From contig JAZRAL010000009.1 of NCBI GenBank assembly GCA_045634545.1, positions 6,470-70,469 of the forward strand: a DNA stretch of 64,000 nt, given 5' to 3'. The position numbers were made by a program, and so were the translations under genes. This document shows, one piece after another, positions 2 to 29,594 of this stretch. The notes beneath the pieces are model-generated. The model was given only the letters and a program-made list of their open reading frames with translations. It did no database searches and was not told where the DNA came from. This DNA is from Alphaproteobacteria bacterium. GTDB taxonomy: Bacteria > Pseudomonadota > Alphaproteobacteria > RF32 > CAG-239. Numbering within the stretch: the first letter of the stretch is position 1; each line of letters opens with the position of its first letter.

Positions 2-373
2 ACCATTGCTCCAAAACCAGCTACAGAAACAAACACAACTGATGTAAAAGAATTTCCGTCATTCCTCACATCAGAAAATTACTTAAAACAAGTAAAAACA
101 CCTAAAGCAGAAACTCCTTCAGAACCAATAAATATAGAAGAAGGCTTAAAAGCTATTCGCCAAGAACTTATCTCAGAAAAACCTAAATCAACACAAACAA
201 TAACCACCTTTGCAAGCACACAATCTGCTTTACGCAACATCAAACCAACAGTGCAAAAAGCAAAAGTGATTTCAGTTGATGAGCTAGAAAAAGAGATAAA
301 TGCATCTCCAGAAAACAATTATGACACATCAATTAGCCCTTTAGGGGATTGGTTAGATGAAAAAAAGAATTAG
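2..373 (+). CDS. 3' end of an upstream hypothetical protein, truncated at the 5' end by the window
   Basis: Frame 2 is open from the window edge to a TAG at 371-373, overlapping the next start by 17 nt. The sequence is low-complexity and K/E/T-rich. No family recognised. Confidence 0.3.
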   Translation, partial: TIAPKPATETNTTDVKEFPSFLTSENYLKQVKTPKAETPSEPINIEEGLKAIRQELISEKPKSTQTITTFASTQSALRNIKPTVQKAKVISVDELEKEINASPENNYDTSISPLGDWLDEKKN

Positions 374-2168
374 TCTAATCCTTTTTTCTTTTATATCTCT
401 ACTAAACATATCTTCTGCTAGCGCACTAGATAAAAATGTTCTAATCACAGATGTTCTAACCATAAATAGCGCACCAAAATACTCTTCTGATTTTACACAT
501 TTTGATTATACAAACCCCAATGCCCCTAAAAAAGGCAAAATAACTCTCCCAGCATATGGCACATTTGATAACTTTAACCCATATATATTCAAAGGTACAG
601 CCTCAACAGAAACCGCATCACTAACTTTAGATAGTCTAGCTATAACTCCAGCAGATGATATCGGTTCCGCCTATCCTCTTATTGCCGAAAAGTTTGAACT
701 ACCTAAAGACAAATCTTTCGTTGGATTCTTTATCAATCCAAATGCAAAGTTTCATGACGGCACACAAATCACCGCAGATGATGTAATTTTTAGCTTCAAT
801 TCACTAATCACCAAAGGATCACCAATCTATAAATTCTATTATCAAGATGTAGAAAAAGCAGTTAAAATATCCCCCTCACACGTTCGTTTTTATTTTAAAC
901 CTAATACCAAAAACAGAGAACTACCGTTAATCCTTGCGTCGCTTAAAATATTCTCTAAAGAAGATTTTAAAGACAAATCTTTTGACAAACCAACCCTAAC
1001 TCCCCCTCTTGGAAATGGTCCGTATCAAGTAAAATCATTTGATGCAGGTAAATATATAGTTTTAACAAGAAACCCAAATTACTGGGCAAAAGACCTTCCA
1101 TCACGTAGAGGTTTTTTCAATTTTGATGAAATAAAATATGATTACTATCAAGACACAACCGTAACCTTACAAGCTTTATTCTCAAAAAACATTGACCTAA
1201 GATTAGAATATATCGCAAAAACTTGGGCAACAGCCTACAATAACGAGCTCATAAATAGTGGAAAAATAAAAAAACAAGCCATTACCCACACTCGCCCTGC
1301 AACAAATCAGTTTTTTGCTTTCAACACTAGAAAAGAAAAATTTTCATCCCCAAAAGTTCGCAAAGCAATAGAGCTTGCCTTCAATTTCCCTTGGGCAAAT
1401 AAAAACCTTTTTTACAATCAATATCAAAGATTAAATAGCTTCTTTACCAACACACCATACCAAGCAACCAATACTCCAACAGATAAAGAGTTAGATATCT
1501 TATTACAATATGAAAAAGACCTTGATGAAAAGATATTTACAACACCAACTGAAGAATTTTTTAGAAACGACAATCTATCAGATAGAGAAAATCTAAAAAT
1601 AGCAGTCAAATTGTTACAATCCGCCGGTTATGATTTTATCAACGAAAAGATGTGTAATCTACAAACAGGCGCACCTCTAGAGTTCGAAATTGTAATAAAC
1701 TCTGCCAATGGTCATACATTTACCCGAGTATTACTACCATTTATCGAAAATCTTAGAAAAATTGGCATAAAAGCCACAACTCGCATATTAGAAATCAATA
1801 CCTATAAAAACAAACTAGATAATTTTGATTTTGATATCATTGTAGGAGGATTTGGCGGAATATCAATGCCTGGAACAGAACAATACGACCTATGGGGCTC
1901 ACAATCCGCAGATACCAAAGGCTCAAATAATCTAATCGGCATAAAAGACCCAATAATAGATGACCTAATCAAAAAAATCGTTGAAACCGAAGATGCAGAG
2001 CAATACACGGCCTATGTTAAAGCATTAGATAGAATTTTACTATTTAACCATTACGTTATCTTTAATTGGTACTCAGCAACAGACAGAATTGCATATTGGG
2101 ATAAATTTGATTTCCCCAAAAATCAAACAACTGGCGTAGATATAAATACTTGGTGGATGAAGGAATAA
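357..2168 (+). CDS. ABC transporter periplasmic substrate-binding protein, family 5 (OppA/DppA/YejA-like)
   Basis: 603 aa with an N-terminal signal peptide (LLNISSASA). Size and overall similarity fit SBP_bac_5 oligopeptide/microcin-type binders. It is followed 4 nt downstream by a permease gene. Confidence 0.8.
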   Translation: MKKRISLILFSFISLLNISSASALDKNVLITDVLTINSAPKYSSDFTHFDYTNPNAPKKGKITLPAYGTFDNFNPYIFKGTASTETASLTLDSLAITPADDIGSAYPLIAEKFELPKDKSFVGFFINPNAKFHDGTQITADDVIFSFNSLITKGSPIYKFYYQDVEKAVKISPSHVRFYFKPNTKNRELPLILASLKIFSKEDFKDKSFDKPTLTPPLGNGPYQVKSFDAGKYIVLTRNPNYWAKDLPSRRGFFNFDEIKYDYYQDTTVTLQALFSKNIDLRLEYIAKTWATAYNNELINSGKIKKQAITHTRPATNQFFAFNTRKEKFSSPKVRKAIELAFNFPWANKNLFYNQYQRLNSFFTNTPYQATNTPTDKELDILLQYEKDLDEKIFTTPTEEFFRNDNLSDRENLKIAVKLLQSAGYDFINEKMCNLQTGAPLEFEIVINSANGHTFTRVLLPFIENLRKIGIKATTRILEINTYKNKLDNFDFDIIVGGFGGISMPGTEQYDLWGSQSADTKGSNNLIGIKDPIIDDLIKKIVETEDAEQYTAYVKALDRILLFNHYVIFNWYSATDRIAYWDKFDFPKNQTTGVDINTWWMKE

Positions 2169-2172
2169 CATC

Positions 2173-3237
2173 ATGCGAAACTACATAATAAAAAGATTAT
2201 TGCTAATCCCCTTTACACTATTTGGAATATTGCTAATAAATTTTGCAATTGTACAACTAGCCCCAGGTGGCCCAGTTGAGTATATGCTTGCTCAATACAA
2301 AGGCATACAAACTTCTGCAACTGGAAATATCAATTCCGGAGTTCCAAACCTCAACGAACAAAAATACCAAGGCTCCAAAGGAGTGCCAGAAGATTTAGTA
2401 AAAGAACTAGAAAAACAATTTGGTTTTGATAAACCTGTACATATCCGCTTTATCAAAATGCTAAAAGATTATGCAACCTTTGATTTTGGAAAAAGCTACT
2501 ACAAAGACAAAACCGTAATACAGCTAATCAAAGAGCGTTTACCTATTTCAATTTCATTAGGTTTATGGTCAACCATTTTAATATATTTAATAGCAATCCC
2601 ACTTGGCATAAAAAAAGCTCGTCTAGATGGCGAACAATTTGATGTAATAAGCTCATTTATTATATTTATAGGCTCTGCTATTCCGGTCTTTTTATTCGCT
2701 GTGTTACTTATTGTTTTATTTGCTGGAGGAACATATTTTAACCTCTTCCCACTTCGTGGATTAACTTCAGATGGCTGGGAAAACTTTACCCTAATACACA
2801 AAATCCTAGATTATTTCTGGCATATAGCCCTACCAACAATCTGTATAGTAATCGGAGGAGTTGCCTCACTTACAATGCTAACCAAAAATTCTTTCATAGA
2901 TGAGCTTAGCAAACAATATGTTTTAACAGCCAAAGCCAAAGGCTTAAAAGATAAACAAATCCTTTACCACCACGTTTTTAGAAACGCTATGATGATAATA
3001 ATCGCAGGACTTCCTGCATTATTAATCAAAATCCTATTTACTGGCTCACTATTAATAGAAATAATCTTTAGCCTAAATGGTATGGGATTACTTGGATATG
3101 AAGCCATAATGACCAGAGATTACCCTGTAATTTTTGGCACGCTTTACATTTTTGCACTACTTGGTTTGGTGTTAAAACTAATAAGCGACCTAACATATTC
3201 ACTAGTAGATCCACGTATAAACTTTGATAAAATATAA
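2173..3237 (+). CDS. ABC transporter permease (OppB/DppB/YejB-like)
   Basis: 354 aa, multi-TM, typical BPD_transp_1 permease. N-terminus MRNYIIKRLLLIPFTLFGILLINFAIVQLAPGGP matches the Opp/Dpp/YejB family. Confidence 0.8.
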   Translation: MRNYIIKRLLLIPFTLFGILLINFAIVQLAPGGPVEYMLAQYKGIQTSATGNINSGVPNLNEQKYQGSKGVPEDLVKELEKQFGFDKPVHIRFIKMLKDYATFDFGKSYYKDKTVIQLIKERLPISISLGLWSTILIYLIAIPLGIKKARLDGEQFDVISSFIIFIGSAIPVFLFAVLLIVLFAGGTYFNLFPLRGLTSDGWENFTLIHKILDYFWHIALPTICIVIGGVASLTMLTKNSFIDELSKQYVLTAKAKGLKDKQILYHHVFRNAMMIIIAGLPALLIKILFTGSLLIEIIFSLNGMGLLGYEAIMTRDYPVIFGTLYIFALLGLVLKLISDLTYSLVDPRINFDKI

Positions 3238-3275
3238 AAAAAGCGGTAGTTTTACCTACCGCTTAAAATTTAATC
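3236..3275 (-). terminator. Rho-independent terminator: hairpin GCGGTAG-N6-CTACCGC followed by a T-run on the minus strand
   Basis: aaaaaaagcggtagttttacctaccgcttaaaattt. The minus strand reads hairpin plus TTTTTTT, directly after the ankyrin gene ending at 3284. It can also act weakly for yejB on the plus strand. Confidence 0.6.
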
Positions 3276-3283
3276 ATAAATTC

Positions 3284-4045
3284 TTATCTATCTAACTCAT
3301 TAAAACCAATCTTTTCACTTGTTTTTATATTTCTTTTCTTAACTGCATTAATTATCACTTTTCTTATTTTTACATCATCATTTGCATATAATATTGCCGA
3401 CTTTCCCCACCTATCTCTAGCATTAACATTTGCTCCATTTTGAATTAATAACCTTATAATATCCCTATAACCTCTGCGTGAAGCCTCCATCAAAACTGTT
3501 ACCCCATCTTTATCTCTAGCATTAACATTTGCTCCATTTTGAATTAATATTTCTACAATCTCTTTATGTCCATTCATTGCAGCTATAAAAATTGGCGTAT
3601 ATCTATAGTTATCCTTTGCATTAACATTAGCCCCTTTTTGAATTAATAACTCAACAACTTCCTTCAGACCTTTTTTTGACGCATCCATTAAAGTTGTTCT
3701 CCCCCACCAACCTTTGGCTTTAAGATATGCGCCCATATCAATCAATTCTTTAATTTCATTAATATCCGGATTTTCATCATCACAAATCAAACTTATTTTT
3801 TCGCCAATTTCTTTAGCTTTTTCTTCATCAAAAATTTCTTTTGCTCCATTTTTCTCAAGCAATTCACATATTCGATTAGCTTCTTTTGATTTTGCATACA
3901 AAAGAACCGAATTTGCCCCACACATAATATTAACATTCACCCCTAACTTAACAAGCATATCAATCTTAGCTAGCTTTAAATACTCCGCCATTTCTTTATC
4001 TTTGATTATATCGATTAATTGCTTTTCTAAGATATTCTCGCTCAT
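3284..4045 (-). CDS. Ankyrin-repeat protein (paralog 1)
   Basis: 253 aa. Multiple ANK repeats (e.g. GRTTLMDASKKGLKEVVELLIQKGANVNAKD, repeated about 4 times). N-terminus MSENILEKQLIDIIKDKEMAEYLKLAKIDMLVKLGVNVN is shared with four other ORFs in the window. Confidence 0.85.
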   Translation of the reverse strand: MSENILEKQLIDIIKDKEMAEYLKLAKIDMLVKLGVNVNIMCGANSVLLYAKSKEANRICELLEKNGAKEIFDEEKAKEIGEKISLICDDENPDINEIKELIDMGAYLKAKGWWGRTTLMDASKKGLKEVVELLIQKGANVNAKDNYRYTPIFIAAMNGHKEIVEILIQNGANVNARDKDGVTVLMEASRRGYRDIIRLLIQNGANVNARDRWGKSAILYANDDVKIRKVIINAVKKRNIKTSEKIGFNELDR

Positions 4046-4116
4046 TTTTGCCCCTTTTATCTCAAAACATAGCCTATTTTATCACAAAATCACCCACTTT
4101 GCAACAAATATCTCCT
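4046..4116 (-). promoter_or_regulatory. Conserved leader/5' UTR of the ankyrin paralog family
   Basis: ttttgcccc..ctcaaaacatagcctattttatcacaaaatcacccactttgcaacaaatatctcc recurs almost identically at 4947-5020 and, shortened, at 20452-20510. Each copy lies directly upstream of an ankyrin start codon. Confidence 0.55.
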
Positions 4117-4147
4117 CAAACGTCATCCTTGATTACATTCCTAACCT

Positions 4148-4186
4148 ATCATCCCTCGATTGCGTCTAGCAATCGTCAAGGGGGAT
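4148..4186. repeat. 38-bp palindromic repeat (copy A): tcatCCCTCGATTGCgtctaGCAATCGTCAAGGGgga
   Basis: Imperfect inverted repeat with arms CCCTCGATTGC and GCAATCGTCAAGGG. Near-identical copies lie at 17308-17345 and 20530-20567, with a degenerate copy at 5021-5045. About 100 bp upstream of the ankyrin 1 start codon. Confidence 0.6.
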
Positions 4187-4190
4187 CATT

Positions 4191-4946
4191 CTAGTCTCCC
4201 ATTCCAAAACCTTTTTTAATTTTATAAAGAAAACTATTCTTATTTCTAGCATCCTCTAACATTTTCTTTACTTTATCATTTTCTACCAAATCAAGAGCTG
4301 TTTTTCCTCTATTATCCTTAGCCTCAATGTCCGCCCCTTTTTCTAATAACAGTTCTACAACTTCACTATGACCTCTACGAGAAGCCCACATAAGCGAAGT
4401 CTGTCCATCTTCATCCTTAGCCTCAATATCCGCCCCTTTTTCTAATAACAATTTTACAGCTTCACTACACCCTCTGTAAGAAGCCCATATAAGCGAAGTA
4501 TCTCCATCTACATTTTTAGCCTCAATATCCGCCCCTTTTTCTAATAATACCTTAACTACATCACTATGACCATTTGATGAAGCCCATATAAGCGAAGTAT
4601 ATCCATTATTATCTTTAGCTTCAATATCCGCCCCTTTATTTATTAACTCTTTTACTTTTTCAAAATTTATTTCTTTCTGACCACATTCTTTAATCAACTC
4701 TTGCCCTAATTCTTCTGCCTTTTCTTCATCAATAAAATCTCTAGCCTTGTTGGCTTTTAGCATTTTTGCAATTTTAATTTCATTTAATTCATTTGCGAGC
4801 TTTAAGGCAGACTTTGCGCCATACAAAGCATTTACATCAACTCCAAGTTTAATTAGCATATCAAGTTTTGCAAGTTTAATATGCTCTGCCATATCCTCAT
4901 CTTTAATAATCTCAAATAACTGCTTTTCTAAGATATTTTCACTCAT
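4191..4946 (-). CDS. Ankyrin-repeat protein (paralog 2)
   Basis: 251 aa with the conserved N-terminal module MSENILEKQLFEIIKDEDMAEHIKLAKLDML. ANK repeats present (GYTSLIWASSNGHSDVVKVLLEKGADIEAK x4). C-terminal tail ends in KKGFGMGD. Confidence 0.85.
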   Translation of the reverse strand: MSENILEKQLFEIIKDEDMAEHIKLAKLDMLIKLGVDVNALYGAKSALKLANELNEIKIAKMLKANKARDFIDEEKAEELGQELIKECGQKEINFEKVKELINKGADIEAKDNNGYTSLIWASSNGHSDVVKVLLEKGADIEAKNVDGDTSLIWASYRGCSEAVKLLLEKGADIEAKDEDGQTSLMWASRRGHSEVVELLLEKGADIEAKDNRGKTALDLVENDKVKKMLEDARNKNSFLYKIKKGFGMGD

Positions 4947-5020
4947 TTTTGCCCCGTTTTTCTAAAAAACATAGCCTATTTTATCACAAAATCACCCACT
5001 TTGCAACAAATATCTCCCCC
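4947..5020 (-). promoter_or_regulatory. Conserved ankyrin-family leader (copy 2) followed by a degenerate palindrome remnant at 5021-5045
   Basis: ttttgccccgtttttctaaaaaacatagcctattttatcacaaaatcacccactttgcaacaaatatctcc, then aaagtcatcccacaattgctccctc, a decayed version of the 38-bp palindrome. Confidence 0.5.
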
Positions 5021-5100
5021 AAAAGTCATCCCACAATTGCTCCCTCTTTTTATTTATCACGCCTTGTTTTGCATCGAAATTATCAAAAAATCTACAATAT

Positions 5101-5135
5101 AAAAAAAGCGGTAGTTTTAGCTACCGCTCAATATT
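5101..5135 (-). terminator. Rho-independent terminator of the phosphofructokinase gene; same hairpin sequence as at 3236-3275
   Basis: aaaaaaagcggtagttttagctaccgctc: hairpin GCGGTAG/CTACCGC plus a T-run on the minus strand, directly after the pfk stop at 5154. Confidence 0.6.
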
Positions 5136-5153
5136 CAAAAATAAAGTACAATC

Positions 5154-6236
5154 TTATTTTACTTCACCAACATACATACCCATCTCAATAGCCGCTCTAA
5201 CATAAACGCTATCTTTATTAAGCATTGTTGTACCTTCTGCAACAACTTCTTCTAAAGGATATGTTTCAAGTTTATCACCATTTAAGGCAACCATAACATC
5301 TGTATGACCTTCTTTTAACAACTCAACAGCTTTAGCCCCAAAAGCACAAGCAAGAGCTCTATCAAAAGCAGTAGGATCACCAGCACGTTGAACGTGACCA
5401 AGTTTTGTAACTCTAGTTTGGAATTCACTATATTTAGCATTAATAGCAGAGCTCAAATATTCACCAATACCGCCATTAATTTTTTCACCAATAAGGTTCT
5501 TTGCACCAGAAACCATTTCGCCACTTTCTGTATGAACACCTTCAGAAACAACGATAACAGCATGTTTTCTACCACTTGCTTTAACAGCTTTCAATTTGTT
5601 AATAATACCATCAATTGTATATGGAATTTCAGGAACCAAACAAACATCCGCAAAACCAGCCACAGCAGAATGCATTGCCAAGTGACCTGTATCACGACCC
5701 ATAACTTCCAAAATCAAAGCTCTTTGGTGAGAACGAGCTGTTTTCCATAAAGCATCAACAGCTTCAACACAAACTTTGCAAGCAGAGTTAAAACCAACAG
5801 AATATTGTGTTAAAGGAGTATCGTTATCAATAGTTTTTGGAATACCAACCATTCTAACACCAGCATTTCGACAATAGTTGCTAACGATATTCATACTACC
5901 GTCACCACCAACTACAACAACAGCGTCCAAACCTAATTCACGAACACCATCGCCAAAACGTTTAGAAATTTCTGCTTGAGATTCCAACTTAACACCTTTA
6001 TTCAAAGAACCTAAGTATGAACCGGCAATTCTTGGCCATGGAGTATCAGAAAAATTACGTGTAGTCAAAAGCTCATAAGAAAGAGGAGCTTCTGTTAAAC
6101 CATCTGTACCATTGTGAATACCATAAACTTCCCAACCATATTTAGCTGCAGAATTAACCACAGACATCACAACAGCGTTAAGTCCTGCACAGTCACCACC
6201 ACTTGTTAAAATACCGATTTTTTTTATTTCAGTCAT
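5154..6236 (-). CDS. pfkA: 6-phosphofructokinase (PfkA family). The GGDGS motif suggests ATP dependence, but PPi dependence is not excluded.
   Basis: 360 aa. N-terminus MTEIKKIGILTSGGDCAGLNAVV carries the PFK signature. VVVVGGDGS and IPKTIDNDT motifs are present. Confidence 0.8.
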   Translation of the reverse strand: MTEIKKIGILTSGGDCAGLNAVVMSVVNSAAKYGWEVYGIHNGTDGLTEAPLSYELLTTRNFSDTPWPRIAGSYLGSLNKGVKLESQAEISKRFGDGVRELGLDAVVVVGGDGSMNIVSNYCRNAGVRMVGIPKTIDNDTPLTQYSVGFNSACKVCVEAVDALWKTARSHQRALILEVMGRDTGHLAMHSAVAGFADVCLVPEIPYTIDGIINKLKAVKASGRKHAVIVVSEGVHTESGEMVSGAKNLIGEKINGGIGEYLSSAINAKYSEFQTRVTKLGHVQRAGDPTAFDRALACAFGAKAVELLKEGHTDVMVALNGDKLETYPLEEVVAEGTTMLNKDSVYVRAAIEMGMYVGEVK

Positions 6237-10729: not shown

Positions 10730-11038
10730 TTAATTAGCTACAGCGCCTAAATTCTTCAAATTTTGAATAATTGTTTGAGCTGTAGATTGAGATTCCTGAC
10801 TAATACCAGCAGATTCTAATGCTAATTTTTTCAAACAAACACTAACCAATTCATCAGAAGTAGCGCTAATAGATTGTGTAAACAATGTACCTGCTTGAAA
10901 TCTAGAATTTGCTTCACTTATCAAACATGCACGCATTTTTGTTTTTGCAGAAGCATTTGAATCAACTGTTGTATATTGAGATAAATCAGCACAACCACTT
11001 AACAACAAAAAAGCACAAAACAAAGCTTTTTTCATCAT
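10730..11038 (-). CDS. Small lipoprotein, hypothetical
   Basis: The start is probably MMKKALFCAFLLLSGC (lipobox LLSGC), with an RBS taggaga upstream. The longer ORF to 11107 lacks an RBS. Confidence 0.5.
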   Translation of the reverse strand: MMKKALFCAFLLLSGCADLSQYTTVDSNASAKTKMRACLISEANSRFQAGTLFTQSISATSDELVSVCLKKLALESAGISQESQSTAQTIIQNLKNLGAVAN

Positions 11039-11138
11039 ATTTCTCCTAAAAATTTCAACTAATATACACCTATTCCAAAAACAACGAACTGTCAAATTAT
11101 TTAACAAAAAAGCCCCCTTTAAAAGGAGGCTAATTCAG

Positions 11139-11729
11139 TTACCGCTTCAAAATCACATTGGCTCTATAAAATTCATCTATTACATCTTTTTTATAATGAT
11201 GAACCTCGAGAACACCATCAACTTCAGCCCAAAACCAAATCTTAGGCAGAGGAGTATCGCCAATATCAGTTCGCATTTTAGATACAATGTCCCATTTTTT
11301 TCTCAAAACTTTGACATCATTTTTATCAAGAAAACTACCGCAATACTTGTTTTTAAAAGCAATAGCATCTTTAACATCACAACAACTATTTCCTGCTATC
11401 ATACTATGAATAACAAGTGTCGGACTAATTCTATAACCAATTACTCGTCCACAAGATTTGTCATATGTTTCTTTTTCGACACAATTTTCATATACATAGC
11501 GAGGTTTTACATAATCATTCACCATCTTTGGTAAATTTCCTTTCCATACCGGCTCATCACCTAACCCAGAAAAATCACCAAACTGAGGATTTACAGGAAC
11601 GACCTTGTCGTTGCTCTCATGAACACTTTTTTCAATGCCCTTCCATCTCAAATGCGCAATCAAAATTGTCACTAAACAAGCTGATACAAAAAAAATTGCA
11701 CCAACAAAAACTAAATCATAAGCATTCAT
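11139..11729 (-). CDS. Hypothetical membrane-anchored protein, cysteine-containing, 196 aa
   Basis: N-terminal TM helix (LVFVGAIFFVSACLVTILIAHL). No recognisable domain. Confidence 0.45.
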   Translation of the reverse strand: MNAYDLVFVGAIFFVSACLVTILIAHLRWKGIEKSVHESNDKVVPVNPQFGDFSGLGDEPVWKGNLPKMVNDYVKPRYVYENCVEKETYDKSCGRVIGYRISPTLVIHSMIAGNSCCDVKDAIAFKNKYCGSFLDKNDVKVLRKKWDIVSKMRTDIGDTPLPKIWFWAEVDGVLEVHHYKKDVIDEFYRANVILKR

Positions 11730-11855
11730 AATAAAAATTTTTAATTAATAATAATTTTCAAGCAAAGCCAAACATATCTTAAAAAAAATATTTTTCAAGA
11801 ATTATTTATTCTTAAAATTACTAAAGCTTTCTAAAATTATTATCAATTATACAAC

Positions 11856-13028
11856 TTATCTTTGAGGCTGAATATGCTGCATCATTGCCATATTCACGTT
11901 GTTATTTCTTTCTGTTTTTGGATGAATATTTTTTAATTCTTTGTTCAAATCAATAGCCTTGCTATTGCTATTCTCTCCTCGAATATTATCACCCACTTCT
12001 TGCACCTTGTTTTCACCTTTTTTAGTCTCTTGATTAAAGCTAAAATACTTAGTATCTTTATCTTTATTAACCATAAAATCTAATACTCTATCAGCATTTT
12101 CTCTATCTTTTGGAGTAACCAATCTATCTTGAACATCTCTAGGCAAAGTATCTGCTTCTGCCAACATATATATTAATTGTTGAGCATCAACTTTTTCATC
12201 TCTAAAACCGAATTGTTCAGCAAGCTCTTTATCTGCAGTAAAAGCTCTAACAATCAATGCATTTGCATTCTCTCCGTATTTTTGATTAATTTTATCATAC
12301 ATTTCCATTGATTGTTCAAGACCAATAGATAGTCTTGCCCCACCTTCTGGCATTTCGCCTGCCATAGATAACTCTGGATATCTTTCTTGCATAACCCCCA
12401 TAGAAGACACTTGGTTTCTATATTCTTCATATCGACCATCTTGTCTTGCATCATTAAAAAGTTGCTCCTGCGCTTCTCTAGAAATTTCTGGGCCATATGC
12501 TAAAGCCATTGTTATATTTTCAGGTGTCATTTTGTCATCAGATAAACCTAAAGCTCTTCCAAGTTGTTTATCACCAGAAGTAGCTAAATATTCTAAGAAA
12601 TCTCCATAAACATTACCTTGTTGAGCATCATTACTAGCTCCATATCTTTGACTAATTCTATCATGTATCCCTTCTTGTTGAGTTAAACATTCAACAACAG
12701 CCCTTTGAGCACATTCATTTAATGGTACATTACCCTCTAATCTATCACTAACATCATTAAAAGCTTGCGCATCTTCACGCATACTCTCTGCAACATCTTC
12801 TCTTGAGCTATTTTCATTACTAGACGCCACATTCTCTGCAATGTTTCTAACTTCTTCCCAAGTAATAGCAGAATCCTCTCTTAATGTCTCTCTCGTGTTA
12901 TCTTGAACAACTTCAATTCTATCACGATTACCATTATCATCTCTATTATTATTTTCTACAGCTTGAGCATTCATTGATGATGACGACAAAAGTACCGCTA
13001 CAGCCAAAGATTCCCAATTCTTACTCAT
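11856..13028 (-). CDS. Secreted acidic hypothetical protein, 390 aa
   Basis: Signal peptide MSKNWESLAVAVLLSSSSMNAQA. D/E/N/R-rich. No recognisable domain. Confidence 0.5.
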   Translation of the reverse strand: MSKNWESLAVAVLLSSSSMNAQAVENNNRDDNGNRDRIEVVQDNTRETLREDSAITWEEVRNIAENVASSNENSSREDVAESMREDAQAFNDVSDRLEGNVPLNECAQRAVVECLTQQEGIHDRISQRYGASNDAQQGNVYGDFLEYLATSGDKQLGRALGLSDDKMTPENITMALAYGPEISREAQEQLFNDARQDGRYEEYRNQVSSMGVMQERYPELSMAGEMPEGGARLSIGLEQSMEMYDKINQKYGENANALIVRAFTADKELAEQFGFRDEKVDAQQLIYMLAEADTLPRDVQDRLVTPKDRENADRVLDFMVNKDKDTKYFSFNQETKKGENKVQEVGDNIRGENSNSKAIDLNKELKNIHPKTERNNNVNMAMMQHIQPQR

Positions 13029-13090
13029 AACAACCTCAATTCATATTATTATATGAAAAATTATACCCTAAAAAATACTTTTTGTAAACA

Positions 13091-15934
13091 TTAAAATAAC
13101 CATCTAAATCCGCCAGTAACAAGCACACCATCACGACCACCATCTTCAATCATGCTCTGACCATAAACCATAATTTGGTTATTAATATGCCCTTGAATAC
13201 CTAAACCATATTGCTCATAAGGTTTAACATACATACTAGGAAGCTTAACCCCATCAACAGCTGTCTGCCCTCTTTCACCAATATCCCAAACTTTACTTGC
13301 CTCAAAATATGGTTTCCATCCATTGCCTAAATCAAAAATAAATCTAACGCCGGGAGATATCTGAAGAGAATGTATAGCATCATTTTTAATATTTACACCC
13401 AACACATTTTTATAATCTTCAGTATTAATATAAGAATAAGCAAGCATTAACGATGGCTGAATAATAAACTTTCCACTATTAAACTCAAAATTATAACCTG
13501 TTTTATTACCAATACCCGCAAGAAATGTTGAATAATCCTCTTTACCAAAAATACTCTTACTTTCTGTTTCCAAAGCACCTACAGATAATGTTGTAGCACT
13601 AAAGAAATCCCCTCTATAAAATGACAATGTACCACCAATCAAACCACCTTTTTGATGAGCTTCAACACCATCATATTCTTGTGTTGCACCGCTATGACCA
13701 ATATAAGCAGTAAAAGCACCATCTAAACTAGCATTAATTTTTCTAACACCTGTATCATATCCAACAAGAGTACCATATGTCTTATTAGATATCTCTGCTC
13801 CATTTTTAAGAAGAATATCTTCATCAATAACATAAGGTTTTACCCAAACACTTGGTTTATTTTCTTTCATAAATGAAGGTAAAGGCTCTCCTGCGCTCAT
13901 AGATGTTTCATAGCTACTCAAATTATAAGCAAGCAAAATTCTTTCACCCATTGGAATATTCATATAATTATCTAAATTTTGGAAAGAATAATTAAGAGTT
14001 TGGCTTAAAACTCCTGTTGCACCTGCGTTTGTACTAATACCACTACCAACAACTGCTGGATTAAATCCACTCAACCCCTTAGAACCGCTTCCTCTTAAAA
14101 ATTCAAAATATCCCTCATCTCCGTTATTATTATAAGCAATATCATAAACATACAAAGGTGTTACAATTTTTGAAGTTCCTTTATAAACAACACTATCCTT
14201 TAACCCTTTTTCAGCAAACATTATAGATGTTTTGTCTTTTACAGGTTCATTTATCCAATTAAGATTCATAACATTTAATTTTGCATCATTTTCAACAATA
14301 ATTCCATTTTCAGTCTCAAATCTATCCATTACTTCTTTTTCAAAGTCAACCTCACTCACAAAATCAACATCACCACTCAATTTAAGCGAATTAAATTTGT
14401 AAATATGAGCCTTATTATCGTTTGTACTAAGAGTTATATTGCCAAAACCAACATCAGCTTTCCTGATATCATTTAATAAATAAACGTTATTCTTATTATT
14501 ACCAAATATGTTCACCCCATATCCTGTAACACCATCAAAATTATCAGCTAAAACCAAATCACCTGAACCGCTTAAATTAAAATTAAGTATCGCTTCATTA
14601 TTATCAACCCAAAAAGCATTATCATCTTTAACACCTTTAGATATAGTATAGTTATTAGCTACAACCATATCCTTATCTTTAATAACAAAATTTAAATTAC
14701 TATCAGTCCAAACAGCCCCACCTTTAGCTTCACCTTCTTCTGATATTACATAGTTACCATAAAAACTAGCCTCAATTTCATCAATTTCTGCAATATTATA
14801 TAAAGCTCCACCAAAACCATCACCATCTTTTATTTTTACATAATTATTATAAAAATCGCCAACAATAGAACCTATACTATTCGCAAAGGTTGTTCTACCA
14901 TCCGGCTCATTAGAAATTGCACCACCTATAGCTAAATAAGAAATAGAATCAACATAATTACCAATAAAATCACCTGTTATCGTATCAATTCGCCCGCCAT
15001 TATGAATAGCTCCTCCGCTTGCAAAACTAGCACCCAAAGCATAATTACCAATAAAATCACCCTCTAAATCAGTAATCTTACCATTCCAGTTAGTCTCTAT
15101 TGCTCCTCCAATTGCTTCTGCAAAAACAGACTCTGCATAATTTGAAATAAAATTACCTTTAAGTAATTTAATATCTGAACTATTTACAACAAAAATAGCT
15201 CCACCCCAACCAACTGAATTAGTACCTAAAACATAGTTTCCAATAAAATCACCCACTATAGAGTTAGGATTACAAACAGCAACAATAATAGCACCACCAG
15301 CACCCTCACCCTTCTCAGCTATTGCGCTATTATTTATAAAATCTGCATATATATTATCAGCCACACCTCTAACAACAATAGCACCACCCCAGGCTAAATC
15401 TGTTTTGGAATTAACAACACTATTGTTAACAAACATACCTGAAATGTCGCCAACTTTATAACCATAGTTAGTAAAAGCACCTCCAAGTAAGTATTTACCA
15501 TTTGGAGAAGGGGATGATAAATCAGCCCACGTACCACTATAATCAAGAATAGGCGTGTTTTTGTTTGTCGTAACATGAGACTTTAAATCAGAATTTGTAT
15601 ATTTAACTGTAAAAGTAACATTTTGATCTAAGGGAACATTATGCTGATATACTTTTTCTATATCACCAGAACCATAATTAGTTTTACTTATTTCTAATGT
15701 ATAGTTAATTGTTTCAAAAACACCTTTTTCTTTATCATAAATTAAAAAAGGAATACTGCCATTTGAAGAACTATTAGTTTTGGTAAGAGTATAAGCTGAA
15801 GCATTGCCTAATGTTGGGACAAAATCTGATGCATTTGCTGTTCTATAACCTAGTCCAGCATAGGCGCACAAGAGCAGAAACAACATTCTAAATACACTTA
15901 TCTCCCCTCTATATCTCATATAGTTCTCTTTCAA
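13091..15934 (-). CDS. Autotransporter (type Va) outer-membrane protein with a beta-helical passenger domain
   Basis: 947 aa with an N-terminal signal region. The passenger domain carries many G-x-F-I-G-N-Y-x..GGAI(xN) repeats (pectate-lyase-like beta-helix). The C-terminal roughly 280 aa form a beta-barrel ending GGFRWLF, with aromatic residues at the C-terminus. Confidence 0.8.
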   Translation of the reverse strand: MKENYMRYRGEISVFRMLFLLLCAYAGLGYRTANASDFVPTLGNASAYTLTKTNSSSNGSIPFLIYDKEKGVFETINYTLEISKTNYGSGDIEKVYQHNVPLDQNVTFTVKYTNSDLKSHVTTNKNTPILDYSGTWADLSSPSPNGKYLLGGAFTNYGYKVGDISGMFVNNSVVNSKTDLAWGGAIVVRGVADNIYADFINNSAIAEKGEGAGGAIIVAVCNPNSIVGDFIGNYVLGTNSVGWGGAIFVVNSSDIKLLKGNFISNYAESVFAEAIGGAIETNWNGKITDLEGDFIGNYALGASFASGGAIHNGGRIDTITGDFIGNYVDSISYLAIGGAISNEPDGRTTFANSIGSIVGDFYNNYVKIKDGDGFGGALYNIAEIDEIEASFYGNYVISEEGEAKGGAVWTDSNLNFVIKDKDMVVANNYTISKGVKDDNAFWVDNNEAILNFNLSGSGDLVLADNFDGVTGYGVNIFGNNKNNVYLLNDIRKADVGFGNITLSTNDNKAHIYKFNSLKLSGDVDFVSEVDFEKEVMDRFETENGIIVENDAKLNVMNLNWINEPVKDKTSIMFAEKGLKDSVVYKGTSKIVTPLYVYDIAYNNNGDEGYFEFLRGSGSKGLSGFNPAVVGSGISTNAGATGVLSQTLNYSFQNLDNYMNIPMGERILLAYNLSSYETSMSAGEPLPSFMKENKPSVWVKPYVIDEDILLKNGAEISNKTYGTLVGYDTGVRKINASLDGAFTAYIGHSGATQEYDGVEAHQKGGLIGGTLSFYRGDFFSATTLSVGALETESKSIFGKEDYSTFLAGIGNKTGYNFEFNSGKFIIQPSLMLAYSYINTEDYKNVLGVNIKNDAIHSLQISPGVRFIFDLGNGWKPYFEASKVWDIGERGQTAVDGVKLPSMYVKPYEQYGLGIQGHINNQIMVYGQSMIEDGGRDGVLVTGGFRWLF

Positions 15935-16422: not shown

Positions 16423-17214
16423 ATGAACCCTATAAACTCGAAGCTCAAGCTTCCAAAAAACAAGTTAAAAGAAATCCCTTTTCGCAAACTTGTTCCAAAT
16501 ATTGTAACTATGTTAGCATTATGCTCCGGACTAACCTCAATTCGCTATTCAGTACAAGAAGATTGGGGAAAAGCCATCCTCTTTATATTCCTAGCCGGAC
16601 TATTAGATGGCTTAGATGGTCGCCTAGCACGTATGCTAAAAGCATCAACCAAATTTGGTGCCGAACTCGATTCTCTATGTGATTTTGTAAGTTTTGGTAT
16701 TGCACCAGCAATTTTAATGTTCCAATGGTGCTTATTTGATTTACCCAAAATTGGTTGGTTCTTCTGTTTACTATATTCAATGGGAATGGCAATGCGCCTC
16801 GCACGTTTTAACACAATGTTAGAAGACGATACGATTCCCCCATATTGGTCACATTATTTTACAGGTGTTCCAGCTCCTGCCGCTGCCGCAATGGCAACAA
16901 TGCCAATTTTAATTACTTTTGACTTTGCTGATGCAGAACCATTTTTGCGCACACATTTATTCTGTGCTATTTGGATGTTGATAGTTGCATATCTTGAAAC
17001 AAGTAGAATCCCGACTCTTTCATTAAAAAAAGCCAAAGTAAAAACTGAACACATGATACCATTAGCATTTTGTGTTGCTTTAATAGCCACATTTTTATTT
17101 ACACAAACATGGCTAACATTTGGAGTTTTGGTAATTTTATATGCATTATCAATTCCATTTACAGTTTATCGTTTTGCAAAAGAAAAATCCGCATACGAAA
17201 AACAAAATGCTTAA
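16423..17214 (+). CDS. pssA: CDP-diacylglycerol--serine O-phosphatidyltransferase (CDP-alcohol phosphatidyltransferase family)
   Basis: DGLDGRLARM..G..LDSLCD matches the CDP-OH phosphatidyltransferase signature D-G-x2-A-R-x8-G-x3-D-x3-D. 263 aa, multi-TM, the typical alphaproteobacterial PssA size. Confidence 0.8.
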   Translation: MNPINSKLKLPKNKLKEIPFRKLVPNIVTMLALCSGLTSIRYSVQEDWGKAILFIFLAGLLDGLDGRLARMLKASTKFGAELDSLCDFVSFGIAPAILMFQWCLFDLPKIGWFFCLLYSMGMAMRLARFNTMLEDDTIPPYWSHYFTGVPAPAAAAMATMPILITFDFADAEPFLRTHLFCAIWMLIVAYLETSRIPTLSLKKAKVKTEHMIPLAFCVALIATFLFTQTWLTFGVLVILYALSIPFTVYRFAKEKSAYEKQNA

Positions 17215-17307: not shown

Positions 17308-17345
17308 GTCATCCCTCGATTGCATTAAGCAATCGTCAAGGGATC
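17308..17345. repeat. 38-bp palindromic repeat (copy B)
   Basis: gtcatccctcgattgcattaagcaatcgtcaagggatc, located 15 bp downstream of the stop of ankyrin paralog 3. Confidence 0.6.
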
Positions 17346-17360
17346 TACGAATTAAAACCA

Positions 17361-28838: not shown

Positions 28839-29594
28839 TTATTCGTCCTTTAAAAAAGATGCATAACCATTCTTCTCTAATTCTAAAGCAAGATTTTTAT
28901 CACCAGTTTTTACAATTTTACCATCTGCAAAAATATGAATAACATCAGGCACAATATAAGAAAGCAATCTTTGATAATGGGTAATAACCAAAAATGCATT
29001 TTTTTCATTTCTTAAAGCATTAACACCTTCTGAAACTGTTTTCAAAGCATCAATATCTAGCCCAGAATCTATTTCATCTAATATAGCAAAAGAGGGTTTC
29101 AAAAGCGCCATCTGTAGAGTTTCAAAGCGTTTTTTTTCACCACCCGAAAACCCTACATTAACAAACCTTTTTAACATCTCTTGATTAATACCTAAAGCCT
29201 CGGATTCTTTCCTCAACAACTTCATAAAACTTAACGTATCAAGCTCTTCTTCATTATTGTGCTTTCTAACGGCATTAAGAGAATGTTTCAAAAAATTAGA
29301 AACAACAACACCAGGTATCTCTGTTGGATATTGGAGTGATAAAAAAAGTCCATTTCTAGCTCTTTCTTCAACACTCATATCCAAAAGATTTTTACCCTTA
29401 AACAAAATTTCACCACTTGTTACAACATACCCATCTTTACCACTCAAAACATAAGACAAAGACGATTTACCTGCTCCATTAGGCCCCATTATTGCATGAA
29501 TTTCACCTTCATTAATCGTAAGATTAAGTCCTTTTATAATTTCTTTATCACCAACACAAGCATGTAAATTTTTTATTTCTAACAAATGATTCAT
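28839..29594 (-). CDS. sufC: Fe-S cluster assembly ATPase SufC
   Basis: 251 aa. Walker A GPNGAGKSS. ABC signature FSGGEKKR. Q-loop and H-loop (ITHYQRLL) present. Confidence 0.9.
   Translation of the reverse strand: MNHLLEIKNLHACVGDKEIIKGLNLTINEGEIHAIMGPNGAGKSSLSYVLSGKDGYVVTSGEILFKGKNLLDMSVEERARNGLFLSLQYPTEIPGVVVSNFLKHSLNAVRKHNNEEELDTLSFMKLLRKESEALGINQEMLKRFVNVGFSGGEKKRFETLQMALLKPSFAILDEIDSGLDIDALKTVSEGVNALRNEKNAFLVITHYQRLLSYIVPDVIHIFADGKIVKTGDKNLALELEKNGYASFLKDE

What the first reader, a model, noticed from the sequence alone, without database searches (positions are those of the whole stretch)
3236..5135. ANK1-ANK2 block is flanked by direct copies of the same terminator hairpin and appears inserted between pfk and a truncated ABC transporter operon
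The hairpin aaaaaaaGCGGTAGtttta(c/g)CTACCGCt occurs at 3242-3263 and again at 5108-5126, in the same orientation. The two copies bracket exactly the 1.8-kb segment that holds two ANK genes with their leaders. On the minus strand both copies are functional-looking terminators, one for pfk and one for ANK1. This arrangement is what is expected if an ANK cassette pair was inserted or duplicated together with a copy of the terminator, or if the hairpin is the target or boundary of the insertion. On the other side, the yejA/yejB-like transporter genes (357-3237) lack the second permease and ATPase genes expected for this ABC family, consistent with disruption of an ancestral operon at this point.
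Basis: partly seen in the sequence, partly recalled or inferred. Interest (0 to 1): 0.55.

Follow-up and report, generated by a model that had tools for sequence, protein, structure and literature searches.

The report
Ankyrin gene islet bracketed by duplicated terminator
Two ankyrin-repeat genes sit as a strain-variable insert between the converging yejB and pfk genes of an uncultured alphaproteobacterium, bracketed by two copies of the spacer's terminator hairpin; it is a clear but fairly ordinary case of accessory-gene gain, exchange and loss at a hotspot.

Summary
GCGGTAG-N6-CTACCGC occurs only at 3243-3262 and 5108-5127 in the 64 kb window. It lies inside a 33-nt direct repeat (3231-3263 and 5096-5128, one mismatch). 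Both copies are canonical minus-strand terminators with a 9-bp stem and a U7 tail.

Related metagenome contigs show that the 1.8-kb ANK block is an insert.
- Distant lineages have yejB and pfk converging directly, or carry a different small cargo gene there.
- One contig with the same last 1000 nt of yejB as an occupied contig has an empty site with one hairpin. That site is exactly the product expected from recombination between the two repeat copies.
- A lineage whose yejB is 17% divergent carries the same hairpin-ANK-hairpin unit at 94-97% identity, beside an empty allele with an unrelated spacer. The unit therefore moved between lineages.

The hairpin belongs to this spacer, not to the ANK cassette. 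Family members at other loci follow other terminators.

The "disrupted ABC operon" idea is refuted. The same unknown gene-yejA-yejB arrangement, with no second permease or ATPase gene beside it, is present in relatives that have no ANK genes.

How the repeat first arose is inferred, not shown. This is a new member of a known kind, of modest interest.

The parts
357..2168 (+). yejA-like periplasmic solute-binding protein (603 aa)
   Evidence: Pfam SBP_bac_5, 4e-67. Conserved in all relatives just upstream of yejB.
2173..3237 (+). yejB permease (354 aa). Its last two codons and stop (AAA ATA TAA) lie inside the left repeat copy.
   Evidence: NCBIfam PRK15133 YejB, 492 bits against a cutoff of 445. 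An identical protein is found on many contigs.
3231..3263 (.). Left copy of the 33-nt direct repeat, AATATAAAAAAA-GCGGTAG-TTTTAC-CTACCGC-T. It is the terminator of ANK1 on the minus strand (U7 tail) and sits directly after the yejB stop.
   Evidence: (family D5). The loop is TTTTAC in all 17 left copies seen in lineages A and B (window; L134-140, L142-145, L149, L159, L161).
3284..4045 (-). ANK1 (253 aa), the yejB-proximal ankyrin gene. It is the conserved member of the islet.
   Evidence: Pfam Ank, 2e-30. 94-96% aa identity to the orthologues in L134 and L144. Reduced to a 55-aa internal-deletion remnant in L159.
4046..4190 (-). ANK1 leader. It holds a promoter-like site (TTGCAA, 17 nt, TG-TAAAAT, at 4104-4076), a 49-nt block identical to the ANK2 leader (4067-4115), and the bulged hairpin H2 at 4149-4182 directly after the ANK2 stop.
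4191..4946 (-). ANK2 (251 aa), the pfk-proximal ankyrin gene. This is the variable slot of the islet.
   Evidence: Pfam Ank, 1e-33. Only 43% aa identity to ANK1. The same slot holds a 350-aa ANK in L144 (58% identity), a different gene in L005-7 and a 485-aa ANK in L159.
4947..5095 (-). ANK2 leader. It has the same promoter block (5006-4978; identical 49 nt at 4969-5017) and only the 3' half of H2 (about 5025-5040).
5096..5128 (.). Right copy of the 33-nt direct repeat (loop TTTTAG). It is the terminator of pfk on the minus strand and the copy that stays in the ancestral position.
   Evidence: A hairpin with the same stem follows pfk in the lineage A and lineage C contigs that reach this junction and in the occupied lineage B contig L159.
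5154..6236 (-). pfk, ATP-dependent 6-phosphofructokinase (360 aa)
   Evidence: Pfam PFK, 1e-87. NCBIfam PRK03202, 338 bits against a cutoff of 253.

Best explanation
The yejB-pfk convergent spacer is a gene-insertion hotspot in this group of uncultured Alphaproteobacteria.

In the window's lineage (A), an array of family-specific ankyrin genes lies in the spacer, oriented like pfk. Each gene has its own promoter-bearing leader. The native spacer segment (A-run, GCGGTAG hairpin, TCAA) is present on both sides of the array: at least 33 nt in the window, and about 62 nt when the longer left junction of other strains is used.

Functionally, the two copies give each of the three transcription units its own stop. 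The right copy terminates pfk and insulates the ANK promoters from pfk read-through. The left copy terminates the ANK array just before it would run into yejB.

Evolutionarily, the unit hairpin-ANK array-hairpin behaves as one islet.
- It is exchanged between lineages by homologous recombination in the flanking core genes.
- Its pfk-proximal slot is reshuffled with paralogous ANK cassettes.
- It can be lost precisely by recombination between the two repeat copies, which restores a one-hairpin spacer.

Shown: the insert status, the repeat, the terminator anatomy, the presence/absence polymorphism, the empty allele that has the recombinant structure, the cross-lineage similarity of the islet, and that the hairpin is local to this spacer.

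Inferred: that the hairpins terminate in vivo; that loss happened by repeat recombination rather than L141 never having had the islet; and how the repeat first arose. My preferred origin is a single-crossover (Campbell-type) integration of a circular or looped intermediate that carried one spacer copy.
For: 1. Repeat and terminators.

2. Insert status. Empty sites: L002 (66-nt spacer, one GCGGTAG hairpin), L004 (96 nt, another hairpin) and L154-157 (265 nt, two other hairpins). A different 0.7-kb cargo with its own TGGGGAtttcTCCCCA terminator sits between the yejB stop and the same hairpin in L001 and L003.

3. Within lineage A (at most 3.8% yejB divergence), 13 contigs are occupied and one (L141) is empty. 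L141 reads yejB-TAA-A5-GCGGTAGTTTTACCTACCGC-TCAATAACC...-pfk, a 50-nt spacer. Its last 1000 nt of yejB are identical to occupied L142 and differ at 5 sites from the window. Its first 200 nt or so of pfk are also cluster-like. It is a k141 MEGAHIT contig, so a repeat of at most 62 nt cannot have caused a false join.

4. The repeat unit is larger than the hairpin. The L137 left junction aligns with the window's right junction over about 60 nt at roughly 85% identity, with one 1-nt gap. The L159 left flank ATCTACAATATAAAAAAA equals the window's right flank.

5. Transfer of the whole unit. L159 (lineage B) has both hairpins. Its islet is 97% identical to the window over the hairpin plus the ANK1 3' end (199 nt) and 95% identical to L144 over the right spacer. 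Its flanks are only 83% (yejB) and 90% (pfk) identical to the window. Its sister contig L160 (2/1000 and 4/460 differences) is empty, with an unrelated 115-nt spacer. L161 keeps a lineage-A-like patch in yejB, at 16 of 19 sites.

6. The hairpin is not part of the ANK cassette. Family members at window 20.5 kb and in L151 follow other terminators.

7. No mobile-element genes were found in the genes scanned on either side (positions 357-32310), and the block has no plasmid or phage similarity.
Against: - The origin of the repeat is not observed. A 33- to 62-nt flanking duplication could also come from an unknown insertion mechanism.
- L141 could be an allele that never had the islet rather than a loss. 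Its pfk is mosaic beyond 200 nt from the stop, so recombination has acted nearby and flank identity is an imperfect guide to ancestry.
- The right-hand flank similarity of the two copies is only modest (16/25, p about 0.009).
- The borders of the islet in lineage B are sharp at both stop codons, with no adjacent lineage-A tract. Under homologous-recombination transfer this needs later erosion of the imported flanks.
- All comparison sequences are metagenome contigs, and many break inside the ANK array.
- The genome-wide copy number of the hairpin in this organism is untested beyond 64 kb.
Confidence: 0.7

Rival explanations
1. The hairpin is the specific target of an insertion mechanism. For example, the palindrome extrudes as a cruciform and is cut at its base, or a site-specific recombinase acts on the folded hairpin. 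Repair would then duplicate the whole palindrome as an unusually long target-site duplication, and the ANK array would be a true mobile cassette.
For: The repeat is centred on a perfect palindrome and includes its A/T-run. Two unrelated cargos, the ANK array and the L001/L003 gene, entered the same spacer next to the same hairpin. The islet borders in lineage B are sharp. A second ANK block in the window is also bounded by direct repeats of a hairpin element, H2.
Against: No transposase, integrase or resolvase was found in the genes scanned on either side, positions 357-32310. No inverted repeats were found at the insert ends. The L001/L003 cargo entered without duplicating the hairpin. The lineage-B empty site has a different hairpin, so the islet there replaced the whole spacer rather than inserting at a GCGGTAG site. 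ANK cassettes at other loci sit after other hairpins. Thirty-three nt is far beyond known target-site duplication lengths (my own knowledge).
Confidence: 0.12
2. This is the reader's alternative: one ANK gene plus its terminator was tandemly duplicated, so the two hairpins are the terminators of the two ANK copies.
For: ANK1 and ANK2 are paralogues with a 49-nt identical leader block and similar N-termini, spaced 901-902 nt apart.
Against: A tandem duplication of gene plus terminator would leave a hairpin between ANK2 and ANK1, and none is there. The right hairpin is the pfk terminator and is present in relatives that have no ANK genes. The coding bodies are only 43% identical.
Confidence: 0.04
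3. The hairpin is a generic, genome-wide repeated terminator or REP-like palindrome, so two copies 1.9 kb apart carry no historical information.
For: An identical 22-nt hairpin occurs in contigs that share no other similarity with the window (L146, L147, L150). The stem motif hits more than 120 stretches across phyla in the genome scan. This shows that such stems arise independently.
Against: Only two copies exist in 64 kb, and the other terminators read in the window and in related loci differ. The similarity extends 12-15 nt to the left of the hairpin, and up to about 60 nt when strain variants are compared. The empty allele L141 is the exact one-copy recombinant.
Confidence: 0.03
4. The ANK array with two hairpins is ancestral to the whole group, and all empty sites are secondary deletions. 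In that case there was no insertion.
For: Repeat-mediated deletion is plausible, and L141 looks like its product. The GCGGTAG hairpin is also present in lineage C.
Against: Lineages D, E and the empty lineage-B allele have unrelated spacers with other terminators and no ANK remnant. Islet DNA is far more similar between lineages A and B (94-97%) than their core flanks are (83-90%), which indicates transfer rather than vertical descent.
Confidence: 0.05

Closest known systems
Chromosomal HGT hotspots or genomic islets between conserved core genes, turned over by homologous recombination in the flanks (the concept described by Oliveira, Touchon and Rocha; cited from my own knowledge)
   Same: A fixed site between two conserved genes. 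Different cargos in different lineages. Presence/absence polymorphism among near-identical strains. No integrase. Traces of recombination in the flanks (L161, L141).
   Different: The islet carries a duplicated copy of the native spacer and terminator at both ends. This gives it a built-in route to precise loss and a terminator for each transcription unit.
Direct-repeat-flanked islands formed by Campbell-type integration (attL/attR of integrative elements)
   Same: The cargo is flanked by direct repeats of a sequence that is single-copy in the empty site. The empty allele equals the recombinant of the two copies.
   Different: No integrase or excisionase gene is present. The repeat is a terminator and spacer, not a tRNA or att core. 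The contents are two to three small ANK genes only.
Integron gene cassettes with attC hairpins
   Same: An array of single-gene units separated or bounded by imperfect or bulged hairpins (H2). The slot next to the fixed upstream boundary is the most variable. Half-site scars are present.
   Different: No intI gene and no R'/R'' core (GTTRRRY) at the hairpins. Each ANK unit has its own promoter. The GCGGTAG hairpin is a canonical terminator with a U-tract. Membership was tested and is not met.
Expanded, strain-variable ankyrin-repeat gene families of host-associated bacteria, such as Wolbachia, Rickettsiales and Legionella (my own knowledge; the Wolbachia genome papers PMC2515876 and PMC1069646 turned up but were not read)
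   Same: Paralogous ANK genes with variable repeat number and rapid strain-level turnover, often in clusters.
   Different: Here the host organism and any secretion route are unknown, and no prophage association was found. The family has a shared promoter leader and a conserved N-terminal 40 aa.

Membership tests
Intrinsic (Rho-independent) terminator | G+C-rich stem-loop | tested here: met
   9-bp stem with 5 G-C pairs and a 6-nt loop. Folding energy -13.8 and -14.1 kcal/mol, z -4.5 to -5.9.
Intrinsic (Rho-independent) terminator | U-tract immediately 3' of the stem on the transcribed strand | tested here: met
   Minus strand: U7 after both copies. Plus strand (yejB): only UU or UC followed by A-rich sequence, so termination of yejB would be weak.
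Intrinsic (Rho-independent) terminator | Located shortly after a stop codon of a co-oriented gene | tested here: met
   The gap between hairpin and stop codon is 25 nt for pfk (stop at 5154-5156) and 20 nt for ANK1 (stop at 3284-3286).
Intrinsic (Rho-independent) terminator | Transcripts end there in vivo | not testable with these tools
   Needs 3'-end mapping.
Genomic islet in a recombination or HGT hotspot | Presence/absence polymorphism among close relatives, with conserved flanking core genes | tested here: met
   Lineage A: 13 occupied contigs and 1 empty. Lineage B: occupied L159 and L161 against empty L160. Flanks are syntenic in all.
Genomic islet in a recombination or HGT hotspot | Different cargo at the same site in different lineages | tested here: met
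   ANK arrays of differing content in lineages A and B. An unrelated 130-138-aa gene in L001 and L003. A 206-aa gene after pfk in L008-13.
Genomic islet in a recombination or HGT hotspot | Islet more similar between lineages than the flanking core genes are | tested here: met
   94-97% for the islet against 83% (yejB) and 90% (pfk).
Integron cassette / attC | Adjacent intI tyrosine recombinase and attI site | tested here: not met
   No recombinase domain in the ORFs scanned between positions 357 and 32310.
Integron cassette / attC | attC with RYYYAAC ... GTTRRRY core sites bounding promoterless genes | tested here: not met
   The hairpin borders read AAAGCGGTAG and CTACCGCTCAA. H2 reads TCCCTTGACG...CGAGGGATGAC. 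Each ANK gene has its own -35/-10-like site.
Transposon or IS with target-site duplication | Transposase gene and terminal inverted repeats at the insert ends | tested here: not met
   The insert holds only the two ANK genes. No inverted repeat pairs 3264-3300 with 5060-5095.
REP/BIME-like dispersed palindromes | Many copies dispersed in intergenic regions of the genome | tested here: inconclusive
   Two copies in 64 kb and none elsewhere in about 40 related loci except at this site. No whole genome could be scanned, because the genome scan was swamped by chance hits.
YejABEF peptide / microcin C ABC importer | YejA binding protein and YejB permease | tested here: met
   SBP_bac_5, 4e-67. PRK15133 YejB above its cutoff.
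YejABEF peptide / microcin C ABC importer | Second permease YejE and ATPase YejF in the same operon | tested here: not met
   Absent next to yejAB in the window and in all relatives. No YejB paralogue and no LSGGQ-motif ATPase was found anywhere in the 64 kb; the one ABC ATPase domain seen (28839-29594) adjoins a SufBD gene. They may lie elsewhere in the genome.
Ankyrin-repeat proteins | Tandem 33-residue ANK repeats | tested here: met
   Pfam Ank and Ank_2, 1e-27 to 1e-33. A 99-nt DNA periodicity.
Secreted ANK effectors of host-associated bacteria | Secretion signal or secretion system and a host target | not tested
   No secretion-system genes were looked for. Function is inferred only by analogy.

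The most novel reading that the evidence does not exclude
The ANK genes of this organism may be true mobile cassettes moved by a hairpin-based recombination process with no recognisable recombinase nearby. Each cassette would be delimited by the bulged hairpin H2 (TCCCT-TGA-CGATTGC-loop-GCAATCG-AGGGA). Whole arrays are bounded by direct repeats of a hairpin: H2 at 17308-17352 and 20530-20574, and the spacer terminator at 3231-3263 and 5096-5128. Half-H2 scars and mismatched H2 halves at the pfk-proximal end would record serial cassette exchange. That would be an integron-like system for eukaryote-like effector genes in Alphaproteobacteria.
Probability: 0.1. Interest if true: 0.7.

Novelty: new member of a known kind. 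Interest (0 to 1): 0.35.

Why it matters
This locus documents, at nucleotide resolution and across natural strains, how a small eukaryote-like (ankyrin) gene array is gained, passed between species-level lineages, reshuffled and precisely lost at a convergent-gene spacer without any mobile-element genes. It also shows how duplicating the spacer terminator keeps three transcription units insulated. It gives a concrete, testable example of direct repeats of at least 33 nt acting as excision points. It also flags a family-specific leader and hairpin (H2) that may organise ANK cassettes in an uncultured alphaproteobacterial group, probably gut- or rumen-associated. It does not change any general principle.

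Tried and rejected
- Exact look-up of the window's own pfk product, and of the 100%-identical P0001, found no contig. Relatives had to be reached through near-identical homologues.
None shares other similarity with the window. The single genome scan was therefore spent without giving the copy number in this organism.
- The metagenome scan with the 36-nt leader pattern found nothing.
- The second metagenome scan, with the hairpin, found 5 loci: this site (L149), one other locus present in three contigs that match the window only at the hairpin (L146, L147, L150), and one more contig with 44.5% GC (L148).
- Rfam gave no family for the hairpins, the leaders or H2, only sub-threshold terminator-like hits.
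- Plasmid and phage collections gave no meaningful match to the 1.96-kb block.
- Two literature searches found nothing on this organism, the ANK family or terminator-flanked inserts.
- I considered whether the window's right junction holds a decayed copy of the yejB 3' end. Similarity stops about 8 nt left of ATCTAC and was not significant by eye, so I dropped the idea.
- A 12-nt motif (CTTAATGTTTTG) is shared between the L160 spacer and the islet's right edge. I estimate the chance probability at about 0.08, so I did not use it.
- H2 stem covariation rests on a single event (A-T to T-A plus one inserted pair, in L134 and L144). That is too little to call a structure.
- Look-up of the CDP-alcohol phosphatidyltransferase protein, tried to see the second ANK block in other strains, returned only one 1.2-kb contig.

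Full report
**1. What is in the window**

Positions 357-6236 encode five genes. They are a YejA-like binding protein (357-2168, +), YejB permease (2173-3237, +), two ankyrin-repeat genes on the minus strand (3284-4045 'ANK1', 253 aa; 4191-4946 'ANK2', 251 aa) and ATP-dependent phosphofructokinase (5154-6236, -).

The hairpin GCGGTAG-N6-CTACCGC occurs exactly twice in the 64 kb, at 3243-3262 and 5108-5127, in the same orientation. The chance expectation is 0.02, and the half-site AGCGGTAG occurs nowhere else.

The identity is wider than the hairpin. AATATAAAAAAAGCGGTAGTTTTA[C/G]CTACCGCT spans 3231-3263 and 5096-5128, 33 nt with one loop mismatch. Anchored flank matches are 11/12 to 13/15 on the left (p about 0.001) and 16/25 on the right (p about 0.009).

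On the minus strand both copies are textbook intrinsic terminators: a 9-bp stem, a 6-nt loop and U7. Hairpin folding energy is about -14 kcal/mol, z -4.5 to -5.9. The right copy is separated from the pfk stop by 25 nt. The left copy is separated from the ANK1 stop by 20 nt, and its A-run begins inside the yejB stop codon.

**2. The organism and the comparison set**

The pfk and yejB products have many near-identical relatives. Those that carry a source name are mostly labelled 'MAG: Alphaproteobacteria bacterium'. Scaffold labels such as XIEF21 and TONG22 suggest ruminant gut metagenome studies. That link is my inference and is not verified.

Using differences in the last 1000 nt of yejB, I distinguish five lineages:
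- A: the window cluster, at most 3.8% apart.
- B: L159-162, 17% from A.
- C: L001-3, 18-19% from A.
- D: L004, 21% from A.
- E: L154-157, 26% from A.

**3. The ANK block is an insert in a hotspot**

- In C (L002), D (L004) and E (L156), yejB and pfk converge directly, with spacers of 66, 96 and 265 nt and no ANK genes.
- L002 has one GCGGTAG hairpin (loop TTAAAA). D and E have unrelated terminators.
- In L001 and L003 (lineage C) a different 0.7-kb cargo lies between the yejB stop and the same single hairpin. It is a 130-138-aa gene with no family match, and it brings its own terminator, TGGGGAtttcTCCCCA.
- In L008-13, pfk is followed by yet another gene and then ackA-pta.

So the space downstream of pfk is a variable site. 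The GCGGTAG hairpin next to pfk is the native terminator of lineages A and C.

**4. Polymorphism inside lineage A**

Thirteen lineage-A contigs carry the left junction yejB-hairpin-ANK1 (window, L134-140, L142-145, L149). L144 spans the whole site: yejB, hairpin (TTTTAC), ANK of 253 aa, ANK-like gene of 350 aa, hairpin (TTTCAC), pfk. That layout stands for 21 further contigs that were not shown. L005-7 show the pfk-side junction with yet another ANK gene.

One contig, L141, is empty: yejB-TAA-AAAAA-GCGGTAGTTTTACCTACCGC-TCAATAACCAAAAATAAAATAACTC-pfk, a 50-nt spacer. This is the left part of the left junction joined to the right part of the right junction.

L141 is identical over 1000 nt of yejB to the occupied contig L142 and differs at 5 sites from the window. 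Its first 200 nt or so of pfk are also cluster-like. Beyond that point its pfk is a divergent mosaic, with 40 differences in 260 nt.

L141 is a k=141 assembly contig and the repeat is at most 62 nt, so the junction cannot be an assembly collapse.

The simplest reading is precise loss by recombination between the two repeat copies. An allele that never had the islet, kept in a recombining population, cannot be excluded.

**5. The repeat unit is essentially the native spacer**

In L137, L143, L159 and L161 the left junction is longer: TAA-AAA(A)CAAGAAATCTA(A/C)AATATAAAAAA(A)-hairpin. The L137 version aligns with the window's right junction over about 60 nt at roughly 85% identity, with one 1-nt gap. 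The L159 left flank ATCTACAATATAAAAAAA is identical to the window's right flank. The ATCTAC motif is also in the lineage-C spacer (CTCATCTACCAAAACAAAAA-hairpin).

The window's short left junction can be derived from the long form by loss of 25 nt between two AAAATATAAAAA repeats. That derivation is my inference.

**6. The unit hairpin-ANK-hairpin moves between lineages**

L159 (lineage B) has both hairpins, with identical TTTTAC loops. It also has an ANK1 remnant of 55 aa (an internal deletion) and a 485-aa ANK.

- Its islet is 97% identical to the window over the hairpin plus the ANK1 3' end (199 nt).
- It is 96% identical over the ANK1 5' part.
- It is 95% identical to L144 over the right spacer.
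- Its flanks are only 83% (yejB) and 90% (pfk) identical to the window.

L160 differs from L159 at 2/1000 (yejB) and 4/460 (pfk) sites. It is empty and has an unrelated 115-nt spacer with another hairpin, GCGGC...GCCGC. In lineage B the islet therefore replaced the whole native spacer, with borders at the two stop codons.

L161 retains a lineage-A-like patch in yejB, 205-355 nt from the stop, at 16 of 19 variable sites. This fits import by homologous recombination in the flanks followed by erosion of the imported flanks.

**7. The hairpin is local to this spacer, not part of the ANK cassette**

The ANK genes belong to a narrow family. Members share a promoter-bearing leader (-10 block GTGATAAAATAGGCTATG; a 49-nt block identical between the ANK1 and ANK2 leaders) and a conserved N-terminus (MSE..LE.QL.EII...MAE..KLAK.DML.KLGV.VNA).

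A third member in the window (19300-20451) follows the sua5 terminator (AAACAC...GTGTTT). A member in L151-153 follows another terminator (AGCGACC...GGTCGCT). None of these loci has a GCGGTAG hairpin.

Within the islet, ANK1 is conserved (94-96% aa). The pfk-proximal slot holds very different genes in different strains (54-58% aa; 251, 350 or 485 aa). The 3' end of one such gene (L144) recurs at the second ANK locus of another strain (L158). This suggests exchange among paralogous cassettes.

**8. The transporter claim**

The same arrangement is found in every relative, with or without ANK genes, down to 88% YejB identity. It consists of an unknown 354-378-aa gene, then yejA, then yejB, with no yejE or yejF beside them. 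The window contains no YejB paralogue and no ORF with an LSGGQ motif. The one ABC ATPase domain found (28839-29594) sits next to a SufBD gene and is probably SufC.

The description 'incomplete operon' is correct.

**9. Mechanism**

Shown:
- The insert status.
- A direct repeat of at least 33 nt, probably about 60 nt, made of the native spacer and terminator.
- Canonical terminator anatomy on the pfk/ANK strand.
- An empty allele with exactly the recombinant structure.
- Cross-lineage transfer of the whole unit.

Inferred:
- The right copy stops pfk transcripts and insulates the ANK promoters. The left copy stops the ANK array before yejB.
- Loss occurs by repeat recombination.
- The duplication arose in one step, when a circular or looped intermediate carrying one spacer copy integrated by a single crossover.

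A tandem duplication of 'ANK plus terminator' is excluded, because no hairpin lies between the two ANK genes. A dedicated hairpin-targeting mechanism is not excluded, but it lacks any enzyme candidate in the genes scanned on either side of the block, positions 357-32310. It also does not fit the lineage-B replacement or the L001 cargo, which entered without duplicating the hairpin.

**10. Comparison and verdict**

The locus works like a genomic islet in a recombination hotspot, with att-like direct repeats, but it has no integrase. The defining features of integron cassettes and of transposons were tested and are not met. It matches no Rfam family and no plasmid or phage sequence, and two literature searches found no description of it.

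It is a new member of a known kind and of modest interest. The most novel open possibility concerns the H2 hairpin that accompanies the ANK cassettes; see the items noticed in passing.

Noticed in passing
window 4149-4182, 17309-17342, 20531-20564 (all minus strand); half copy at about 5025-5040: A second, family-specific bulged hairpin, 'H2': (A)TCCCT-TGA-CGATTGC-loop5-GCAATCG-AGGGA-TGAC. It has 3 complete copies against 0 expected. In L144, L151 and at window 20.5 kb it lies 16-22 nt upstream of the promoter-like -35 of a family ANK gene; upstream of ANK1 it is about 45 nt away. It also lies directly after the stop codons of ANK2 and of the last ANK gene of the second block. In L134 and L144 the inner stem is CGTTTTGC/GCAAAACG, one compensatory change plus one added pair. 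It matches no Rfam family. It could be an operator, an mRNA 3' hairpin or a cassette boundary.
   Followed up: partly
window 17308-20574: A second ANK block on the minus strand: ANK 383 aa (19300-20451), ANK 217 aa (18641-19294) and ANK 425 aa (17361-18638). It lies between sua5 (20648-21592) and a CDP-alcohol phosphatidyltransferase gene (16423-17214). It is bounded by a 45-nt direct repeat of H2 (17308-17352 and 20530-20574, 93% identical, family D7). In relatives L001 and L004 an OMP beta-barrel gene follows sua5 instead. In strain L158 the last ANK gene before the terminal H2 is a different one.
   Followed up: partly
window 4067-4115 and 4969-5017: A 49-nt block is perfectly identical between the two ANK leaders, covering the -35 and -10 and the start of the transcript. 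The coding bodies are only 43% identical at the protein level. This suggests gene conversion or strong selection on the regulatory region.
   Followed up: partly
L144 10140-10235; L005 about 11100-11190; L159 3600-3640: The leaders next to pfk carry tandem or mismatched H2 3' halves (GCAAAACGAGGGATGACGGGTTAGGAGTATGGGG twice; GTTTTGC-tttaa-GCA(A/G)TCGAGGG). The sequence read in L005-7 and L159 can be derived from the L151 form by a deletion between TTTAA and TTAAT (my inference). These may be scars of repeated recombination at H2.
   Followed up: partly
L001 about 11262-11284 versus L003 about 5405-5412: A (GT)n tract lies a little over 100 nt upstream of the start codon of the alternative cargo gene. 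It has about 11 repeats in L001 and about 3 in L003. This could be a phase-variable promoter.
   Followed up: no
L159 1816-1983: ANK1 is reduced to a 55-aa in-frame remnant, with the N-terminal MLVKLGANVNA fused to the C-terminal RDRWEKSAILYANDD... segment. The cause is a deletion between ANK repeat motifs. This is direct evidence for repeat-mediated contraction.
   Followed up: partly
L141 pfk beyond 204 nt from the stop; L161 yejB 205-355 nt from the stop: Mosaic tracts occur in the flanking core genes. L141 pfk switches from cluster-like (2-3 differences in 200 nt) to highly divergent (40 in 260 nt). L161 yejB carries a lineage-A-like patch in a lineage-B background.
   Followed up: partly
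L144 4116-5201 and L156 4068-5204; the gene would run off the left end of the window, before position 357: A conserved 354-378-aa gene with no Pfam or NCBIfam match overlaps the yejA start by 17-20 nt in all lineages. It may be an unrecognised partner of the YejAB pair, which lacks YejE and YejF here.
   Followed up: partly
L001 5717-6313, L002 5715-6323, L154-157 13026-13652: A serine recombinase (Pfam Resolvase) gene sits next to the Na+/H+ exchanger gene in lineages C and E. It is absent at that position in the window and in lineage A.
   Followed up: no
window 10730-15934 (minus strand): Four consecutive ORFs (125, 196, 390 and 947 aa) have no Pfam match. Relatives have different genes here, including Peptidase_S41. 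This looks like another variable region.
   Followed up: no
L146 3133-3154, L147 3258-3279, L150 3691-3712: An identical 22-nt hairpin (AGCGGTAGGTAAAACTACCGCT) occurs at one locus seen in three low-GC contigs; L146 is labelled a marine metagenome. The contigs match the window only over 38 nt around the hairpin. This shows that identical terminator stems can arise independently.
   Followed up: partly
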